Virus record (IMG/VR): IMGVR_UViG_3300031965_000004
Span: 30,430-94,429 of that record
DNA length: 64,000 nucleotides
DNA from: a virus
Strand: one strand, 5' to 3'
Below are positions 20,007 to 55,882 of this stretch, one piece after another; within the stretch, counting starts at the first letter, position 1, and the number at the start of each line of letters is the position of its first letter. The position numbers and the translations under genes were made by a program. The notes beneath the pieces were generated by a model. It ran no database searches, was not told the DNA's origin, and saw nothing but the letters and a program-made list of their open reading frames with translations.

Positions 20007-20043
20007 GGGTCTTCTTCAACCCATTGCGGGTTGGGGATTTACG

Positions 20044-20080
20044 AGAGAGGCTTCCTCGCTGAGGGAGCCTCTCTTCGTTT
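20044..20080 (+). terminator. intrinsic terminator-like hairpin
   Basis: AGAGAGGCTTCCTC-GCT-GAGGGAGCCTCTCT then TCGTTT. Confidence 0.6.
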
Positions 20081-20138
20081 GTGGAAGGTCTTCTTGTCGG
20101 ACCTGTGCCTATGCTTCCCGGTGGCCAGGGGAGGCGCT

Positions 20139-21740
20139 GTGGACAAGCAGAAACGCCGGCAGCGGAGACTCAAGATCAAGCCGCAGGGGTGCATGTCGCG
20201 AGATAAGGCGTGGCTGTTGGGCTTCATGGCGGGTGACGGAAACGTGAGCGTGGCAGAAGACGGCGGCGCCCATGTGTCAGCCAACTGCGGAGTCGCGGAG
20301 GACTCCGCCAACATGGCGCTGGCTGAGCGCGTTGCGGAGCTTTTCCGGAGGATCTACGACGTCCCCGCTCACGTCCGGGTTCAGTCCCGGGATCCGGGGC
20401 GCCTTCCTTACTGCCAGCCGATTCTTTATCGGCGGGCAGTCGCTGACGACATACTGTCGCACGGTCCGATCGGGACTTACGATTGGACCGTTCCGGCGGA
20501 GGTTCGGCGAGACAAGGAACTCGCTGGGGCGTGGCTGTCAGGCTTGTGGGACGCAGAAGGAAACGTCTCCCTTGATCCTGACGTCTCGAGGCGAACGGTC
20601 AGCGTCAGCAGCGTGAACGAGCTTGGTTTGCGCGTGGTGAAGGCCATGGTCGAGTCGCTCGGGATTCGCTGTTCGTGGCATACGGACGACGGCAAGTCCG
20701 AGAGGAGCCCCGGCTGCCTGCCGGAGAACAAGGTGATGGTGTGCAGCCAGGCAGCCATGGGGGGCTTCGCCGAGAAAATCGGGTTCACCCACCAGGGCAA
20801 GGCGGCGAGTTTGGCGAGCCTGCTCGCGAGCTATAGCCGCGAGGTGCCTAACCTCCTGTCGCACGAGGTTAGAGAGTTGCTCCCCGAGATTCTGAAGCGG
20901 CGCGCAGCGGGGGCCCCGTTCTCGGCCATAGCGACGGAGTTGCAGTTTTCAACGCCAGAGGTGGCCAAGGGAATGGTCAAGCGGGCGTCGAAAGCCGCAG
21001 GCAATCAGTGCCTGATTTGCCTCGAGCGTCCTGCAACGCATTCGATCCCGCGAGTCATCAAGGGGCGGTCTGGTAAATACGTCTGCGAGCCGTGCCTGGT
21101 CTCTCTTGAGCCTGCCGAGGCTGTCCCCGAGTGGGGCGACGAGCTCGTGAAGCAGTCCGCGCGAAAGGTCGCTGACTTCTTGGACGAGCACCATTACCTC
21201 GGGCGTCGCGGCGGCGTGAGCGACTTCGCACTGCGCAACGCGGCCGGCGTCCTCGTCTTCTCACGCCGGCCGCAAGCAGCCGGCTTGCCGCGGGATTGGT
21301 TGGAACTGTCTCGGTGGTGCCTGGTCCCGGGCGGCGTCAACGTAGGCACCGCTCAGTGGGCGCAGGTCAAGCGCTGGTTGCTCGAGAACACGGACGCATC
21401 GACCGTCGTCAGCTACAGCGATCCGGCCCGACACGACGGGGCGATCTACCGGGCCGCCGGGTGGCTCTGGGCGCCTTCGTCCAGCTTCCTCTTGAAGAAC
21501 ATGAAATTGAGCGGAGAGCGCTACCCAGAGAAGCCCTACACCGACAAGAACCGCTGGGTCTACCCGCTCAGGCGAGACGAGCGCCGGGCTGAGGCGTTGA
21601 CCGTCCGAAACCCGTGGCTCTGCAACAGCGAGCGCTACAAGTTCCTGTGCGACTGGCCCGAGCCGACGTGGAAGCGCGGCCGAGCTACAGGAGGGGGCAA
21701 GGACTACAAGCGCTGGAAGGCGCTTCTCGCTTCTCGCTAG
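20139..21740 (+). CDS. LAGLIDADG endonuclease fused to Zn-finger and Mom-like (GNAT) DNA-modification domain
   Basis: WLLGFMAGDGNV and WLSGLWDAEGNV; CLIC/CEPC; HHYLG...LELSRW...VSYSDPARHDGAIYRAAGW; GTG with GGAGG RBS. Confidence 0.75.
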   Translation: MDKQKRRQRRLKIKPQGCMSRDKAWLLGFMAGDGNVSVAEDGGAHVSANCGVAEDSANMALAERVAELFRRIYDVPAHVRVQSRDPGRLPYCQPILYRRAVADDILSHGPIGTYDWTVPAEVRRDKELAGAWLSGLWDAEGNVSLDPDVSRRTVSVSSVNELGLRVVKAMVESLGIRCSWHTDDGKSERSPGCLPENKVMVCSQAAMGGFAEKIGFTHQGKAASLASLLASYSREVPNLLSHEVRELLPEILKRRAAGAPFSAIATELQFSTPEVAKGMVKRASKAAGNQCLICLERPATHSIPRVIKGRSGKYVCEPCLVSLEPAEAVPEWGDELVKQSARKVADFLDEHHYLGRRGGVSDFALRNAAGVLVFSRRPQAAGLPRDWLELSRWCLVPGGVNVGTAQWAQVKRWLLENTDASTVVSYSDPARHDGAIYRAAGWLWAPSSSFLLKNMKLSGERYPEKPYTDKNRWVYPLRRDERRAEALTVRNPWLCNSERYKFLCDWPEPTWKRGRATGGGKDYKRWKALLASR

Positions 21741-35895: not shown

Positions 35896-35931
35896 CTCTC
35901 AACGCCCGCGCAGAGGCTTTGTGTCTGCGAC
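35896..35931 (+). CRISPR. solitary CRISPR repeat unit
   Basis: CTCTCAACGCCCGCGCAGAGGCTTTGTGTCTGCGAC matches the array repeat at 51.6-54.7 kb. Confidence 0.85.
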
Positions 35932-50639: not shown

Positions 50640-51121
50640 TAGAAGCCCTCGCCGCCCATGCCCGAGACGCCCATGCCGCCAAACGACTCGGCCGCGTAGG
50701 GGTGCGCGTTGGGGTCAGTGGCGGCCGGCGCTTGCTGCTGCGAGCTCGCCTGGAGGTCCCCCCAGCTCGGCGCGCGCTGAACCGAGCGCGAGTGACGAGC
50801 GGAGCTTGCGGGCAGGGCCACGATCGGGATCCCGTTGGGATCCATGCCCATCAGGCCCCCGCCCATGGCCGGGTTGGAGTCGTCGACCAGCATGGTTCCC
50901 CCGGGCGCTTGCACCTGCTGCAAGGTCGCTTGCTGCGGCTGCCCGGGGCCGGGCGCGGGGCCTTGTCCGAGGGTCTTCCAGGCGTTCCACGCCATGAACG
51001 CGACGCCGGCCGTCGCCAGCCAGCCCACGGGGCTCATTTGCGGGATCCCCCACTTGCTCTTTTCTGCCACCAGGAGCTCCTTGTGGGCCGTGTGAGGCCC
51101 ACCGTCCTTCGATCTTCGCAC
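50639..51121 (-). CDS. membrane protein with GMG motifs
   Basis: N-terminal TM; GGMGVSGMGG at the C-terminus; start uncertain. Confidence 0.55.
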   Translation of the reverse strand: MRRSKDGGPHTAHKELLVAEKSKWGIPQMSPVGWLATAGVAFMAWNAWKTLGQGPAPGPGQPQQATLQQVQAPGGTMLVDDSNPAMGGGLMGMDPNGIPIVALPASSARHSRSVQRAPSWGDLQASSQQQAPAATDPNAHPYAAESFGGMGVSGMGGEGF

Positions 51122-51176
51122 ACCTGACCCCAGCGGGGCCAGCGAAGAGAGCAGAGATTACGGACTCTCCAATGAC

Positions 51177-51208
51177 GTTGCAGACACGAAGCCTCTGCAC
51201 GGGCGTCG
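51177..51208 (-). CRISPR. detached repeat unit distal to the downstream array
   Basis: GTTGCAGACACGAAGCCTCTGCACGGGCGTCG on the + strand. Confidence 0.8.
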
Positions 51209-51212
51209 CCTG

Positions 51213-51590
51213 CTAGACCCTCGGCCGCGGATACGAAGCCGCGGCCTTGCGGAGAAGCGTGACGAGCACGTCGATTCGATCGGTTCGCTTGAGGATCGTG
51301 GCGAGGTCGGCGCGGATCTCTACGTCGAGGCGCTCCTGCTCGTTGACGAGCCGGTCGAGGACCCCGTGGATCAAGGCGAGGTCAGCGGAAGTCGTCGTCC
51401 TGAGGACTCGCACACCGCTGCCAACGTGTTGTTCGCCCGCGGGCCGGCCCGGCCGCCCGCACGCGCACCGCTGATGCTCGTCCTCGTTCGGGTCGCTGAG
51501 GATCAAGTCGAACTTGGACTCTTCGACTTGCCCCGGGAGAAGGAAGGTTTCAATCTCGAGTAGAACAAGAACAGCGATCGTGTCGGGCAT
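51213..51590 (-). CDS. hypothetical protein lying between CRISPR repeats
   Basis: 125-aa ORF between the repeats at 51608 and 51177. Confidence 0.55.
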   Translation of the reverse strand: MPDTIAVLVLLEIETFLLPGQVEESKFDLILSDPNEDEHQRCACGRPGRPAGEQHVGSGVRVLRTTTSADLALIHGVLDRLVNEQERLDVEIRADLATILKRTDRIDVLVTLLRKAAASYPRPRV

Positions 51591-51607
51591 GAGGTCTCTC
51601 GAATGAC

Positions 51608-52161
51608 GTCGCAGAAACGAGGCCCCTGCGCGGGCGTTGGGATCCGTCTACGTCTGGCCACAGATACGAAGCCTCTGCACAGGCGTTGGAGAAGTCGTCA
51701 TCGGCGCAGAAACGAAGCCACTGCGCGGGCGTTGGGGGCGGTGAACTCAACGCCGAGAGTCGCAGACACGAGGCCCCTGCGCGGGCGTTGAAGGAAGCTG
51801 GCGGCGAAAGGAGGGGCGCGCGAGCCCTGACGGGTCGCAGACACGAGGCCCCTGCGCAGGCGTTGAACTCTACCCGTCGAGAGTTGCAGACACGAAGCCT
51901 CTGCACGGGCGTTGGGTGATTCCTTCCTCCCGTCGCAGGCACGAGGCCCCTGCGCGGGCGTTCACTCCCTGCACTCTGTCGCAGACACCAAGCCTCCGCG
52001 CGGGCGTTGAGGGCGCGCAGTCTACATCCCTGACGACCTGGCAACCAGGGTCGCAGATACCAAGCCTCCGCGCGGGCGTTGAGGGCAGAGGGGTTCTCCC
52101 CGGATTGGTTGCGCGTACGGCCCGTGTCGCAGATACCAAGCCTCCGCGCGGGCGTTGAGGG
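51608..52161 (-). CRISPR. CRISPR array downstream of the cas12-like gene, 10 repeats
   Basis: 32-nt cores at 51608, 51657, 51703, 51759, 51834, 51883, 51932, 51978, 52050, 52126; leader-proximal 36-nt repeat (minus) CCCTCAACGCCCGCGCGGAGGCTTGGTATCTGCGAC; gaps between cores 17, 14, 24, 43, 17, 17, 14, 40, 44 nt. Confidence 0.9.
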
Positions 52162-52335
52162 AGAGGGGTTCATAACTTATTGACCGCAAGTGATTTAGTC
52201 GAGTCATTTCGAGCGCATGGGAAAGGGAAGGGCCGCGGGGCGGCGAGCAATCTTCGGATCTTCGTAAGTCGTTGTGGCGACGGACGCGAGCACCTCCGGC
52301 GGTTTCGAGAGGCCGGAGGTGCTCGCGCGGCAAGG
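52162..52335 (-). promoter_or_regulatory. putative array leader
   Basis: Non-coding, locally AT-rich (CATAACTTATTGACC...GATTTAGTC) between the effector stop and the most homogeneous repeats. Confidence 0.5.
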
Positions 52336-54246
52336 TCAACTTCTGGCGAGCTCGACCAGGGCGCCGGCCTCGTGCGCGGCGTTCTCCCTCGCCGCGGCGC
52401 TTGCCGCCCGCCGTTCGGCTCGGTTCGGTCCGGTCGTCGTGTAGGTCATGAGGTCGCCAGGGGCGTAGGGCTCACGCACCCAGCCGCCGTCCGGGCCGGC
52501 GCCGAGAATGTTCCTGGCTGCGTTTACGTCCTGGTCCCACCGCAGGCCGCACGCCGAGCAGGTATGCAGGAGGAGGAGGTGGTCCGTCCACTCGCTGTCG
52601 ACCGACCCGCAAGCGTGACAGCGCGTGGTCGTCTCCGCCGCTTCAACTGCGCTCACGTCCGCCCCGCGGCCTTTGAGCGACTCGATCAGGCTCGAGAGAC
52701 AGGCGTTGCGCGCGTTGCGCTTCATGCGGTCTGCCTTCGCGGTCTGCCCCTCCTCGACAAGCGGGAGAACGTGAAACTCGCGCAGGTCGAGCTTCTCGAT
52801 CCGAATCTCCCTGTAGGTCCGGGTCATGCGGGCGGCGAAGCGCCGGTAGAGGTCCTTGCGGCTCGCTTGGAGCTGGGTGCGCGTGTGGGCCTCGTAGTCG
52901 AGGAGGTGCCGCTCGCGCAGCCGCCAAGCCTCGATCTCGGCAGGCACGGCTTCTCCCTTGTCGGCGAGCGCGCGGGTCAAGCTCCGCACCCGGGCCTGGG
53001 ACCGCGTGTGAGAAAGGCCCGTGGACACGGGCTTCCCGTCCCGCCGTGGGGGCACGCGACCCTGGGCCTCGAGCGCCTTGACCCACTCGAAAACGAAGGG
53101 CCGGATCGCGTCGAGGAGTCGATCGCGCTCGCTCTGGATCCGCTTGACCTTCTCCATTTCTGCACACCAGCGCGCCGGGAGCGCGAGCTCGCCCTCGGCG
53201 CCGTCTGAACCGGCCCAGACCGCGACGCGCAGTCGCCCGTCTGACATGCGTCGCCAGCCGACGTCGACTCCAACGCGGCCATTGGAGGCCAGGTCGGGCT
53301 TGGTCCACGCGCCCTTCTCGGCGCTGAGGACAAACTGGACCGACCACACGTCCTGGCAGCCCAGGTTTCTGCGGGTGCAGAAGACCCGCTTGACGACGGC
53401 GTCAGGCGGGAGGGGCCGGTGATAGACGAAGGGGATCTCCGCCCAGATCGCGGACCGTGACGAGTCGGCCTGCGAGCCGATTCGCAGGCTCAGCGATCCC
53501 TGGAGGCGCCCTGCGGCACGCTTGGACCCAGGGATCGCCGAAGGTCGGTGCGAGACTACGAGCTTCGCCTGCGTGGAGGTCCCCGAGAGGAGTTTCGCCA
53601 CGCTCATGCCGCCCGGGACTTGGACCTCGATCTTGTCCTTGCGACACGACCAGGGCCGAAACTTGGGGGGCGAGCCCTTGCGCATGCTCTTGCATGCGTC
53701 GTCCACGGCCCCGCCTGTGCCCCAATAGAGGCCATTCAGGGCGCGGGCCGCCTTTCGCGCGACGTCCTCTTTGGCTTCGATCAGCGCATACGCTTCGATC
53801 CAGGCGGGGTCTGCGAACAGCTCCGCCCGGATCGCCTTGCGCGAGGCGTAAAGCGCCTTGCGCGAGGCGCGAGCAACCTTGAGCGCCTCGCTCAAGGTTG
53901 GATCCTTGACGTTCTTCGAGCGCTTCGCCTTCCGAAGGCGTTTGACCGCCGACTCGAGGCGCTCGATCTCCCCGATCACCCCCCAGCCGGCCTCCGCGGG
54001 AGCCCCCGAGTCGGGGTCGGCTTTGCTGCTCGCGGCCCCGATCAAGTCCTCGACCGCGAGCAGCTCGGGCGAGAGCCTCGCGAGCAGCTCGTCGGCCTCG
54101 GCGCGACGCTCGAGCTCGATCTCGCAGCGCTTGTTCCGGTAGACGTGCGCTCGCTGGAATTGCTCCTGGACGCCGTCCAGGTTGGAGGTCGGAGGCCGGG
54201 CGCCGTATTTGAAGACGCGACCGTCTCCCTGCATTTTGTTTCTCAT
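52336..54246 (-). CDS. Cas12m-like (type V-U1/V-M, TnpB-derived) RNA-guided RuvC effector, ~636 aa
   Basis: VFKYG..P...AHVYRNKRCEIE, GLYWGT, HRPLPPDAVVK; RuvC-I GVDVGWR, RuvC-II IEKLDL, Zn finger CHAC/CSAC, RuvC-III DQDVNAARNIL; flanked by arrays. Confidence 0.85.
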   Translation of the reverse strand: MRNKMQGDGRVFKYGARPPTSNLDGVQEQFQRAHVYRNKRCEIELERRAEADELLARLSPELLAVEDLIGAASSKADPDSGAPAEAGWGVIGEIERLESAVKRLRKAKRSKNVKDPTLSEALKVARASRKALYASRKAIRAELFADPAWIEAYALIEAKEDVARKAARALNGLYWGTGGAVDDACKSMRKGSPPKFRPWSCRKDKIEVQVPGGMSVAKLLSGTSTQAKLVVSHRPSAIPGSKRAAGRLQGSLSLRIGSQADSSRSAIWAEIPFVYHRPLPPDAVVKRVFCTRRNLGCQDVWSVQFVLSAEKGAWTKPDLASNGRVGVDVGWRRMSDGRLRVAVWAGSDGAEGELALPARWCAEMEKVKRIQSERDRLLDAIRPFVFEWVKALEAQGRVPPRRDGKPVSTGLSHTRSQARVRSLTRALADKGEAVPAEIEAWRLRERHLLDYEAHTRTQLQASRKDLYRRFAARMTRTYREIRIEKLDLREFHVLPLVEEGQTAKADRMKRNARNACLSSLIESLKGRGADVSAVEAAETTTRCHACGSVDSEWTDHLLLLHTCSACGLRWDQDVNAARNILGAGPDGGWVREPYAPGDLMTYTTTGPNRAERRAASAAARENAAHEAGALVELARS

Positions 54247-54290
54247 GGCGTAACTCTTAGGGGGGCTAGGTGGTGGGAAAGGAGATCCTG

Positions 54291-54662
54291 GTCGCGGACA
54301 CGAAGCCTCCGCACGGGCGTTCGAGGTGGTGGGCGGGTCGGTAACAGAAACGAAGCCTCTGTGCGGGCGTGAGTTGCTGCTTGAAGACGGGGCGCGGATA
54401 CAAAGCCTCTGCGCGGGCGTGGAGGAAGCCGCATCCGTCTTCGTGGTTGCAGACACGAAGCCTCCGCACGGGCGTTGAAGGCGTTCTTCCAGGTGATCGC
54501 AGACAGGAAGCCTCTGCGCGGGCGTTTCGCCCCTCTCTCGACGTCGCAGACAGGAAGCCTCTGCGCAGGCGTGGTCGATCCCTCATGCAGTCAGTAACAG
54601 AAACAAAGCCTCTGCGCAGGCGTTCGTAGGGTCGCAGACTGGAAGCCTCTGCGCGGGCGTCA
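54291..54662 (-). CRISPR. CRISPR array upstream of the cas12-like gene, 8 diverged repeats with short spacers
   Basis: Cores at 54291, 54341, 54391, 54446, 54496, 54543, 54594, 54631; gaps 18, 18, 23, 18, 15, 19, 5 nt. Confidence 0.85.
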
Positions 54663-54863
54663 GGACGCAGGGGGTCCGGGTCGGCGGAACTTCATGGGGT
54701 GGCCTGCGGGAAGGGCACAGGCCGCCCGCTCGAACCAGAAGGCGGCTTCTCGGATCCGCCCCTCAGGACCTGGGCCCCACACGACGGGGCCCGGGTCAGG
54801 GGCCGTTCGGCGAAGGGCGTCGCGGAGCTGCTCGAGCTCGTGATCGTAGAGATCGTCGGTCAT
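54660..54863 (-). CDS. hypothetical protein
   Basis: Stop codon overlaps the first repeat of the upstream array. Confidence 0.45.
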   Translation of the reverse strand: MTDDLYDHELEQLRDALRRTAPDPGPVVWGPGPEGRIREAAFWFERAACALPAGHPMKFRRPGPPAS

Positions 54864-55882
54864 ACCCACTCGACGACCTCGCCCGGCTTGTCGTGCGAGT
54901 GGAGTTCGGCCAAGTGATCGGCGACCTCAGCCAGCGCCTCGCGAACGTCGGCACCGACGTTCGCGCCGAGCGGATCCAGCGCCGCCAAGAGGTCGCGACG
55001 GGCGTGCTCGGTCTCCTCGACCTCACGCGCCGTTTGCGCCGCCTCCTCTTGGGGGGTAGGGGGGGGCGAGGGAAGCGGGAGACTCCAACGACGCTCATGG
55101 CTCGCCATAAGCGTCCGGGCGGACCTAATCACGAGAACCGCGGCCTCATCGGCCTCCGACGCCTTCGCCTCCGCGCGCTCGGCCGCCCATTGGGCGAGAG
55201 CGGACGCGAGGGCCTCCGCCCAGGCACCCGCGTCCGGGCCGGGAAACGCCAACCCGCGGAGCGCCAGCGCGTAGTAGCCCTGGCGGTCGAGGGCCTCAAT
55301 CCAGTGCATGGCGACGTGGACTGGCTGGCCCCCCTTCGGGGCCCCGTTTCGGGGCCCCGCCCGGACTCCGCCCGGAGTCGGCGTCAGTTCCGCGGCGGTC
55401 AGCGCCGCTTCGTAGGCGTCCGTCGCGGCGCGCCAAACCGTCTCGTGCAAAAGCAGCCGAATCGCCCGCTGGGCGGCTTCTCGATACGCCTCGCCGTCCG
55501 CGGCGTTCCAGCGGGCGGCGCCCAACCCAGCCGCCCAGGGCTGGCGGGCGGAGCGACCGTTGCAGCCGCCCATGCCGCCGGGGCCGCCGCAGCCGGCGAG
55601 GTCCACCTGAATCAGGGCGGCGCAGGCGAGGCGGACCTCGCGGGACCACTTGGCCACCGCCTCGGCGACGCTCTCGTTTCGCCACGTCGGCGAGACGGTG
55701 ATGGGCACGACCGCGACCGCGCGGCGGGCGGCGTGGCAGGTGGCGAGCACGCGCCACTTCGCTCGATCCGCCGCGGTCCCGCGGATTGCGTCGAGGACGG
55801 TCTCCGGGGCGCAACCCGCTGTCTCTAGCCGCTTCTTGAGGGCGGCGGCGGTCTCAGGCGGAGGTGCGGCCAGAGGGCTCAT
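54860..55882 (-). CDS. Ala-rich hypothetical protein
   Basis: ATGA-coupled ORF. Confidence 0.55.
   Translation of the reverse strand: MSPLAAPPPETAAALKKRLETAGCAPETVLDAIRGTAADRAKWRVLATCHAARRAVAVVPITVSPTWRNESVAEAVAKWSREVRLACAALIQVDLAGCGGPGGMGGCNGRSARQPWAAGLGAARWNAADGEAYREAAQRAIRLLLHETVWRAATDAYEAALTAAELTPTPGGVRAGPRNGAPKGGQPVHVAMHWIEALDRQGYYALALRGLAFPGPDAGAWAEALASALAQWAAERAEAKASEADEAAVLVIRSARTLMASHERRWSLPLPSPPPTPQEEAAQTAREVEETEHARRDLLAALDPLGANVGADVREALAEVADHLAELHSHDKPGEVVEWV

What the first reader, a model, noticed from the sequence alone, without database searches (positions are those of the whole stretch)
51608..54662. Diverged repeats show compensatory changes preserving the 3' stem
Seen: the consensus stem CGCAGA/TCTGCG becomes TGCAGA/TCTGCA (51883, 51177), GCGGA/TCCGC (54291) and ACAGA/TCTGT (54341). 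Other variants (51657, 52050, 52126, 54594) pair through G-U only on the minus strand, which also fixes the transcription direction (3' end ...GCGAC). Inference: the short-spacer units are under selection as RNAs and are not a decaying array; repeat diversification may also protect them from recombinational loss.
Basis: partly seen in the sequence, partly recalled or inferred. Interest (0 to 1): 0.7.

Follow-up and report, generated by a model that had tools for sequence, protein, structure and literature searches.

The report
Viral Cas12m guide array, diverged repeats
A soil virus carries its own DNA-targeting CRISPR protein (Cas12m) flanked by two guide-RNA arrays in which almost every repeat differs, yet paired mutations keep the RNA helix the protein needs, so these unusually short units look like working guides rather than decaying DNA.

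Summary
The window (part of a 94-kb IMG/VR virus record) holds 21 copies of a 32-nt repeat: 8 upstream and 10 downstream of a 636-aa Cas12m gene (minus strand), one terminal copy, and two solitary copies on the plus strand.

The 6-bp stem is paired in 122 of 126 cells on the minus strand. Four of the six pairs show double (compensatory) changes, each with G-U intermediates still present. Random placement of the same substitutions gives 109.6±2.6 paired cells (P<5e-5; P=1.6e-4 on unique haplotypes).

The stem is the known pseudoknot helix of the Cas12m crRNA scaffold. It covaries at all six pairs across 150 repeats from about 40 other Cas12m loci.

The wider result is an array architecture I did not find described. 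Spacer lengths across Cas12m loci are bimodal (about 40 nt and about 16 nt). Short-spacer units have lost the repeat's 5' four bases, are about as long as a mature crRNA, and sit between diverged repeats. This state recurs in unrelated Cas12m lineages and in two virus records.

The anti-recombination idea remains untested. No targets, RNA data, Cas1 or reverse transcriptase were found. An earlier first-reader note on this same stretch exists.

The parts
54291..54662 (-). Upstream array: 8 diverged 32-nt repeat cores (54631, 54594, 54543, 54496, 54446, 54391, 54341, 54291). Spacers are 5, 19, 15, 18, 23, 18 and 18 nt. The last repeat lies 45 nt before the cas12m ATG.
52336..54246 (-). cas12m gene (636 aa plus stop). 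It has a TnpB-like RuvC domain and a zinc-ribbon TNB domain. The RuvC residues D328, E484 and D573 are all present.
52286..52326 (-). 15-bp inverted repeat (hairpin) between the cas12m stop codon and the downstream array. Its role is unknown.
   Evidence: read directly from the sequence; no T-run terminator was called there
51608..52157 (-). Downstream array: 10 repeat cores (52126, 52050, 51978, 51932, 51883, 51834, 51759, 51703, 51657, 51608). Spacers are 44, 40, 14, 17, 17, 43, 24, 14 and 17 nt. The three gene-proximal repeats are near-identical and keep the full 36-nt form.
51213..51590 (-). 125-aa ORF between the last array repeat and the terminal repeat. It has no family match. Its ATG lies 17 nt after repeat 51608.
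51222..51245 (-). Repeat-derived perfect 8-bp hairpin that keeps the repeat's loop sequence.
   Evidence: (family D9) and the sequence
51177..51208 (-). Terminal repeat copy with the compensated U-A stem variant. Its downstream 12 nt resemble those after repeat 51608. Positions 51171-51247 are replaced by 25 other bases in the related virus of run X2.
45376..45407 (+). Solitary repeat copy with a perfect stem, on the other DNA strand.
35900..35931 (+). Solitary repeat copy with a perfect stem, on the other DNA strand.

Best explanation

Inferred mechanism:
- Both arrays and cas12m are transcribed on the minus strand.
- Cas12m cuts the transcript into crRNAs of about 48-50 nt. Each carries a 32-nt repeat-derived pseudoknot scaffold, followed by a 14-24 nt guide.
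- The scaffold has helix 1 (GCC at positions 5-7 with GGC at 16-18) and helix 2 (positions 10-15 with 25-30).

Why the repeats diverge but stay paired (shown by sequence statistics only):
- The protein reads the shape of helix 2 rather than its sequence. Repeats can therefore drift as long as the helix stays paired, and they do so through G-U intermediates and compensatory second changes.
- No adaptation genes are present, so repeats are not homogenised by copying during spacer uptake, and nearly every unit becomes distinct.

Origin of the short units (inferred; I lean to the first):
- (a) Deletions erode the parts that are trimmed from the crRNA anyway, down to a floor set by the roughly 17-nt guide.
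- (b) A Cas1-independent route inserts crRNA-sized units.

The guides most likely direct Cas12m to DNA of the host or of competing mobile elements. No target was identified.
For: Effector:
- P0002 matches a solved Cas12m at E 2.6e-45 and Pfam PF07282.

Structure within the locus:
- 122/126 stem cells are paired against 109.6±2.6 expected; P=1.6e-4 on unique haplotypes.
- 4 of 6 pairs have double changes.
- All 21 variants keep at least 5 of 6 stem pairs in their minimum-energy fold.
- The only two copies with an internal mismatch both carry A31 to C. This adds a G9-C31 pair.

Structure across the family:
- A covariance model built from these repeats finds 368 matches in 85 loci. Among the 150 best, all six stem pairs covary (157 double-changed cells, 99% paired) and helix 1 is 98% paired.
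- The helices coincide with the pseudoknot in Cas12m cryo-EM structures. Those structures also show a 17-bp heteroduplex and a mature crRNA of about 33 nt repeat plus 17 nt guide (PMC10442227; bioRxiv 10.64898/2026.03.26.714355; PMC11013384).

Architecture:
- Spacer lengths are bimodal, with a peak at 16 and a peak at 40-41.
- Short spacers go with diverged repeats: 4/107 identical neighbours against 110/188.
- The repeat's 5' four bases are kept after long spacers (197/216) but not after short ones (74/156).
- Other diverged arrays (L003, L011, L043, L070) also keep pairing above shuffles when repeats are found without using the stem.

Dynamics and gene content:
- A relative about 93% identical over cas12m in run X2 (parts also in X3) has like repeats with other short spacers, and gains or losses of units.
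- No Cas1 in the record. V-M loci lack other cas genes in general (PMC10691335).
Against: - There are no RNA data. No RNA run holds the stretch, so transcription, processing and loading of the variants are inferred.
- No protospacer was found in the 94-kb virus record, in IMG/VR or in 185,579 reference genomes. Collection scans need exact matches, and 14-19 nt guides are too short to search there.
- Copies share ancestry, so independent events are fewer than cells. I count at least 4 independent double changes.
- Four cells are unpaired.
- One unit (54631) has only a 5-nt spacer and cannot guide.
- Whether this Cas12m cuts or only binds DNA is unknown.
- The distal enrichment of short spacers that erosion predicts is weak (pooled rho -0.23, p 0.02), and one locus shows the opposite trend.
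Confidence: 0.8

Rival explanations
1. This is a decaying, non-functional array. The apparent compensation comes from chance, shared ancestry of copies, or only paired copies being recognised as repeats.
For: Repeats are degenerate (18 distinct among the 19 minus-strand copies of the locus). Most spacers are too short for a canonical array. One spacer is 5 nt. No adaptation genes are present.
Against: Random placement of the same substitutions is rejected. Finding copies without using the stem gives the same 19 copies in the locus. No gap in the arrays is long enough to hide a decayed copy. Scaffold positions outside the stem are invariant. Both copies with an internal mismatch gain a second-site pair. 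Spacer content turns over between relatives.
Confidence: 0.04
2. The units are RNA decoys or crRNA-like regulators aimed at a host Cas12m, like viral RNA anti-CRISPRs (Racr) or phage crlRNAs. They would not be guides for the virus's own effector.
For: The element is viral, and three solitary repeat copies lie elsewhere in the genome. A provirus record (G001, 92% complete) has at least 35 short units of the same repeat family but no Cas12m gene. Racrs and phage crlRNAs are documented (PMC10651486; bioRxiv 10.1101/2024.10.29.618823).
Against: Here the cognate cas12m lies between the two arrays, on the same strand. Spacers are diverse, keep a guide-sized length (mode 16 nt) and differ between relatives. 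A pure decoy does not need any of this.
Confidence: 0.08
3. The repeats act mainly as Cas12m-dependent processing or regulatory sites within viral messenger RNAs, setting the expression of neighbouring genes rather than supplying guides.
For: Repeat 54291 lies 45 nt before the cas12m ATG and repeat 51608 lies 17 nt before the ATG of the 125-aa ORF. The whole neighbourhood is co-directional on the minus strand.
Against: This could apply to a few copies only. It does not explain about 16 tandem units with unique guide-sized spacers, or the same architecture in other loci.
Confidence: 0.08

Closest known systems
Type V-M CRISPR-Cas12m systems (MmCas12m2, GoCas12m, PmCas12m; Wu et al. 2022, PMC10442227, PMC11013384, bioRxiv 10.64898/2026.03.26.714355)
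   Same: The effector family is the same. There is no tracrRNA-like anti-repeat near the locus and there are no adaptation genes. The repeat lies 5' of the guide. The pseudoknot scaffold is the same: positions -3 to -8 pair with about -18 to -23, plus a GCC/GGC helix. The guide is about 17 nt.
   Different: Characterised systems use arrays of uniform repeats. Here nearly every repeat is distinct, is cut down to a 32-nt core, and is followed by only 14-24 nt. Arrays lie on both sides of the gene. The locus is on a virus. The RuvC D-E-D triad is intact, unlike the HDD or NDD sites of MmCas12m2 and PmCas12m.
MvCas12m of myxophage MV-1 (bioRxiv 10.64898/2026.09.14.751636)
   Same: It is a virus-encoded Cas12m with conserved RuvC residues. 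It has an adjacent array, no cas1/2/4, no tracrRNA and no spacer matches.
   Different: That locus is described with one consensus repeat and eight spacers, and a 610-aa protein. No repeat diversification, short spacers or covariation are reported. I could not compare the sequences.
Virus-borne mini-arrays, solitary repeat units, RNA anti-CRISPRs and phage crlRNAs (Medvedeva 2019; PMC10651486; bioRxiv 10.1101/2024.10.29.618823)
   Same: These are repeat units carried by viruses, including solitary copies, without adaptation genes.
   Different: Those elements borrow or block a host effector. Here the cognate effector is encoded between the arrays, and there are about 18 arrayed units.
TnpB omega-RNA / reRNA
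   Same: The scaffold core is a triplex-pseudoknot and the guide is about 16-17 nt and genetically fixed. GoCas12m crRNA is described as reminiscent of the TnpB reRNA core (PMC11013384).
   Different: The scaffold is about 150 nt and there is one guide per element, not tandem 48-nt units.

Membership tests
Type V-M CRISPR-Cas12m | Effector belongs to the Cas12m family (TnpB-like RuvC plus zinc-ribbon TNB domain, about 570-650 aa) | tested here: met
   E 2.6e-45 to solved Cas12m 23vw_A over residues 93-588. Weaker matches to UnCas12m4a and Cas12m2. PF07282 at E 2.2e-11.
Type V-M CRISPR-Cas12m | Repeat-derived 5' scaffold folds into the Cas12m pseudoknot (helix -3..-8 with about -18..-23, plus a second short helix) | tested here: met
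   Covariation within the locus and across 150 repeats of other Cas12m loci. The positions agree with PMC10442227 and bioRxiv 10.64898/2026.03.26.714355.
Type V-M CRISPR-Cas12m | CRISPR array next to the effector, on the same strand, with no tracrRNA | tested here: met
   Arrays lie on both sides of cas12m on the minus strand. No reverse-complement copy was found at up to 9 of 32 mismatches. The only plus-strand copies are 6 and 16 kb away.
Type V-M CRISPR-Cas12m | No cas1/cas2/cas4 in the locus | tested here: met
   No Cas1 (PF01867) in the 94-kb record, with the controls positive. The record is only 74% complete.
Type V-M CRISPR-Cas12m | Interference by DNA binding without cleavage | not testable with these tools
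   D328, E484 and D573 are conserved in the homologue alignment. PMC10442227 suggests clades with D-E-D may cleave.
Canonical CRISPR array | Near-identical direct repeats | tested here: not met
   18 distinct sequences among the 19 minus-strand copies of the locus, mean pairwise identity 0.82. Canonical Cas12m arrays give 0.97-1.0.
Canonical CRISPR array | Spacers of uniform length, about 30-40 nt | tested here: not met
   13 of 16 spacers are 26 nt or less (mostly 14-19) and three are 40-44 nt.
RNA anti-CRISPR (Racr) / solitary repeat units | Repeat mimic on a virus that lacks the cognate effector | tested here: not met
   The cognate cas12m lies between the arrays. The feature is met in a different record, provirus G001.

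The most novel reading that the evidence does not exclude
Short units are not eroded canonical units. They are made by an unknown, Cas1-independent route that inserts crRNA-sized modules into Cas12m arrays, for example capture of processed crRNAs, possibly from other Cas12m systems.

This would explain three things at once:
- the sharp 16-nt mode of spacer length;
- the loss of exactly the parts that are trimmed during crRNA maturation;
- the very different stems within one array, such as L043.

Against it: no reverse transcriptase is present in three virus records, and L011 holds intermediate spacer lengths.
Probability: 0.12. Interest if true: 0.9.

Novelty: new variant of a known kind. Interest (0 to 1): 0.62.

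Why it matters
CRISPR repeats are normally identical, so selection on crRNA structure cannot be seen within one array. Here a single locus acts as a natural mutagenesis series. It shows which scaffold positions Cas12m needs as sequence and which only as pairing. That is directly useful for designing non-repetitive, recombination-proof multiplex arrays for the compact Cas12m tools now used for base and epigenome editing.

The recurrent state (32-nt core plus about 16-nt guide) suggests that Cas12m arrays without adaptation genes can persist as sets of long-lived, individually selected guide genes. They would sit between adaptive CRISPR arrays and hard-wired guide RNAs such as TnpB omega-RNA.

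It also raises a testable question: how do such units arise and turn over in viruses?

Tried and rejected
The contig of the 90%-identical homologue P0003, and other homologues' contigs, could not be fetched that way.
- No RNA holder is listed for the stretch. All runs laid were DNA contigs, and the table of base differences was cut before the arrays. Orthologous repeat substitutions between relatives could therefore not be scored.
- Spacer targets:
  - No second match at up to 2 mismatches in 16 nt in the 94-kb virus record beyond chance.
  - The three long spacers give no exact match in IMG/VR.
  - Two of them give no exact match in the reference genomes.
- No sigma-70-like promoter, and no convincing terminator, in 50900-55200.
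- No Rfam family matches the repeats.
- The global fold of the array transcript is no more stable than shuffles (z 0.37).
- An anchor-only repeat finder with 8 positions was too permissive in GC-rich DNA. I replaced it with a 13-position one.
- Neighbour avoidance of similar repeats was tested and not found.
- Reverse transcriptase (PF00078) is absent from the three virus records.
- Variability of positions in this locus correlates with variability across the family only weakly, and my scanner partly fixes the conserved family positions, so I give this little weight.
- PHROGs and Pfam give no function for most neighbouring genes.
Full report
WHAT IS THERE

The window is bases 30430-94429 of a 94,429-base IMG/VR virus record, 74% complete by CheckV. 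It has 67.8% G+C, and most of its predicted proteins have no Pfam or PHROGs match.

At 52336-54246 on the minus strand lies a 636-aa protein (P0002).
- It matches Pfam PF07282, the Cas12f1-like TNB domain.
- It matches TnpB-family models below their curated cut-offs.
- Among solved structures it is closest to a Cas12m (23vw_A, E 2.6e-45 over residues 93-588), followed by UnCas12m4a and Cas12m2.
- In an alignment with 22 homologues, RuvC residues D328 and D573 are invariant and E484 is conserved in at least 90% of sequences. The D-E-D triad is therefore intact.

A fuzzy search with the 32-nt consensus finds 21 copies in the window.
- Eight lie upstream of the gene (54291-54662).
- Ten lie downstream (51608-52157).
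- One lies beyond a 125-aa ORF (51177). All of these are on the minus strand.
- Two solitary copies are on the plus strand (35900, 45376).
- A 22nd copy lies in the same record outside the window.

CHECK OF THE OBSERVATION

Read on the minus strand, the unit has a 6-bp stem between positions 10-15 and 25-30.

On the 21-copy alignment A1:
- 96.8% of stem cells form a standard pair.
- Four of six pairs show changes on both sides (6 cells). Eleven cells are G-U and four are unpaired.
- 0-5 of 500 column shuffles reach the observed measures. Sliding the 3' partner by 1-3 columns drops pairing to 29-58%.

Because the copies are related, I ran two further nulls.
- I placed the 27 observed stem substitutions at random stem positions, using the observed mutation spectrum. 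This gives 109.6±2.6 paired cells against 122 observed (0 of 20,000 simulations).
- After collapsing to the 11 distinct non-consensus stem haplotypes, 62 of 66 cells are paired against 53.4±2.3 expected (P=1.6e-4).

Further points:
- Substitution density is the same in stem positions (27/252) and non-stem positions (42/420). What is conserved is pairing, not sequence.
- Each of the four covarying pairs has at least one independent double change, and each still has G-U intermediates present in other copies.
- Reading the other strand turns those G-U pairs into A-C mismatches (112 against 122 paired).
- All 21 variants keep at least five of the six stem pairs in their minimum-energy fold.
- The only two copies with an internal mismatch (51703 and 54391) are also the only two with A31 changed to C. 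This adds a G9-C31 pair at the base of the helix. That is 2 of 2 against 0 of 19 copies.

WHAT THE STEM IS

The helix coincides with the pseudoknot helix of the Cas12m crRNA scaffold seen in cryo-EM structures.
- In Cas12m2, C(-22)-C(-17) pair with G(-8)-G(-3), next to a non-canonical G·A pair (PMC10442227).
- In PmCas12m, -23..-20 pair with -3..-6, and G(-28)-C(-26) pair with G(-15)-C(-17) (bioRxiv 10.64898/2026.03.26.714355).
- The second helix corresponds here to GCC (positions 5-7) with GGC (16-18). It is invariant in all 21 copies.

A covariance model built from the 21 copies finds 368 matches in 85 loci. These were fetched through Cas12m homologues, or through the repeat pattern, from metagenomes and IMG/VR.
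- In my own scan, 440 matches lie on the cas12m strand and 26 on the other.
- Among the 150 best matches, all six stem pairs covary (157 double-changed cells, 99% paired). The second helix is 98% paired, with two G-C to A-U exchanges.

Rfam has no model for it.

THE WIDER PATTERN

Measured from the 32-nt core, spacer lengths across these loci are bimodal. One mode is at 39-42 nt, which corresponds to a 36-nt repeat with a spacer of about 36 nt. The other is at 14-17 nt, with its peak at 16.

Arrays rich in short spacers have almost every repeat distinct.
- These are this window, L003/L087, L043, L011, L014 and L070. Their mean pairwise repeat identity is 0.65-0.84.
- Canonical arrays have identities of 0.97-1.0.

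Short spacers go with diverged neighbours.
- Neighbouring repeats across a short spacer have a median of 26/32 identical positions. Only 4 of 107 such pairs are identical.
- Across long spacers the median is 32/32, and 110 of 188 pairs are identical (P about 1e-28).
- Per locus, Spearman rho is -0.66.

The first four bases of the 36-nt repeat are kept after long spacers (197/216 positions) but not after short ones (74/156). A short unit is therefore a 32-nt core plus about 16 nt. Its total of about 48 nt is close to the mature crRNA reported for Cas12m: about 33 nt of repeat plus 17 nt of guide, with a 17-bp heteroduplex (preprint above; PMC10442227). The parts that are missing are the parts that maturation removes.

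With repeats located only by non-stem anchor positions, the other diverged arrays also keep the stem paired well above within-array shuffles:
- L003: 1 of 2000 shuffles reach the observed pairing.
- L011, L043 and L070: 0 of 2000.

L043 is the extreme case. It has 26 detected units plus two degenerate copies inside its 61-62-nt gaps. They carry 19 distinct stem haplotypes, mostly fully paired, and the spacers are mostly 13-19 nt.

On a Cas12m tree the short-spacer state is scattered: 7 changes for 7 rows. It therefore arises repeatedly.

Two of the clearest cases are virus records: this window and provirus G001. A third virus record, G002, has a mostly canonical array.

DYNAMICS

Contigs of two sediment metagenomes (X2, X3) hold a relative. 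In X2 it is about 93% identical over cas12m.
- The four units nearest the gene in the upstream array are collinear with the window.
- Elsewhere the relative joins like repeats through other short sequences (14-37 nt).
- It lacks two units of the upstream array.
- Positions 51171-51247, which hold the terminal repeat and the adjacent hairpin, are replaced by 25 other bases.

The arrays therefore gain and lose units on the time scale of a few percent divergence. A few spacer pairs within arrays are related beyond chance, for example those after 51883 and 51759, and those after 51608 and 51177. This points to occasional unit duplication.

HOW IT MOST LIKELY WORKS

Shown:
- The effector family.
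- The co-orientation of gene and arrays.
- Selection for the pseudoknot helix.
- Guide-sized spacers.
- Absence of Cas1.

Inferred: the minus-strand transcript is processed by Cas12m into crRNAs that direct it to DNA of the host or of competing elements.

Without adaptation genes nothing homogenises the repeats. They drift under the constraint of pairing.

For the origin of short units I favour erosion of the dispensable segment down to a functional floor.
- For: L011 shows many intermediate lengths, and short spacers are weakly enriched away from the gene (pooled rho -0.23, p 0.02).
- Against: the trend is weak and one locus shows the opposite.

Direct insertion of crRNA-sized units is not excluded. 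No reverse transcriptase is present in the three virus records.

Whether this enzyme cleaves or only binds is open. PMC10442227 suggests that D-E-D clades may cleave.

THE RECOMBINATION IDEA

Diverged repeats share exact runs of only about 7-15 nt. That should reduce deletion between close direct repeats; this is general knowledge and was not tested here.

The order of repeats shows no avoidance of similar neighbours. Age alone explains the association between short spacers and diverged repeats. The idea remains open.

RIVALS

- Neutral decay is rejected by the statistics above. It is also rejected because there is no room for undetected decayed copies in the arrays.
- A decoy or regulator role against a host Cas12m fits provirus G001. 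That record has at least 35 short units and no Cas12m. It fits this locus less well, because the effector sits between the arrays here.
- A role as messenger-RNA processing sites may apply to the copies just upstream of cas12m and of the 125-aa ORF. It cannot explain the arrays.

NOVELTY

The helix and the system type are known. A virus-encoded Cas12m has been reported in a myxophage, with a conventional array (bioRxiv 10.64898/2026.09.14.751636).

I found no description of the following features in full-text searches or in the key Cas12m papers. The nearest remark is that V-M lacks a characteristic repeat length (PMC10691335).
- Within-array covariation.
- The bimodal spacer lengths.
- The truncated diverged repeats.
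- The recurrence of this state.

LIMITS

- There are no expression data and no identified targets.
- The repeat finder is tuned to this repeat family.
- Many contigs are short.

Noticed in passing
L087:3293-5078 and L088:1849-2023 (provirus record G001): A 74.6-kb provirus record (92% complete) holds at least 35 short units of the same Cas12m-type repeat, with 13-18 nt spacers. The first stem pair is mostly A·G and the rest covary. No Cas12m homologue was detected with the protein or with the 23-sequence profile. It is an orphan array that may use, or decoy, a host Cas12m.
   Followed up: partly
L043:5256-6590: This array has 26 detected units plus two degenerate copies inside its 61-62-nt gaps. 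The units carry 19 distinct stem haplotypes, mostly fully paired, and the spacers are mostly 13-19 nt. It is the most extreme case of within-array covariation found, on a 180-kb metagenome contig of moderate G+C.
   Followed up: partly
window 54246-54322 and 51590-51639: The last repeat of the upstream array ends 45 nt before the cas12m ATG. The last repeat of the downstream array ends 17 nt before the ATG of a 125-aa ORF with no family match. These repeats may double as processing or regulatory sites for those messages.
   Followed up: no
window 51171-51247: The related virus in run X2 has 25 unrelated bases in place of these 77 bases. The 77 bases contain the terminal repeat copy and a repeat-derived perfect 8-bp hairpin, so this block is an insertion or deletion between relatives.
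   Followed up: partly
window 51703-51734 and 54391-54422: The only two copies with an internal stem mismatch both carry A31 changed to C. This adds a G-C pair at the helix base, where Cas12m2 has a non-canonical G·A pair.
   Followed up: yes
G000:C1:24009-24040 (outside the window, plus strand): A third solitary repeat copy matches 51932, the copy with the compensated G-C variant, over the 30 bases compared (positions 3-32 of the core). It lies about 58 kb away on the other strand.
   Followed up: partly
window 52286-52326: A 15-bp inverted repeat with an 11-nt loop lies between the cas12m stop codon and the downstream array, with no T-run after it. It may be a processing or stability element, or a factor-dependent terminator.
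   Followed up: no
window 20007-21737: A 577-aa ORF combines a Mom-like DNA-modification domain with a LAGLIDADG homing-endonuclease domain. It is probably a Mom-like gene carrying an intein.
   Followed up: no
window 51867-51882 and 51743-51758; 51592-51607 and 51161-51176: Two pairs of spacers are related to each other (9 of 13 and 11 of 13 identical at their 5' ends). This suggests unit duplication followed by divergence, or guides against variant alleles of one target.
   Followed up: partly
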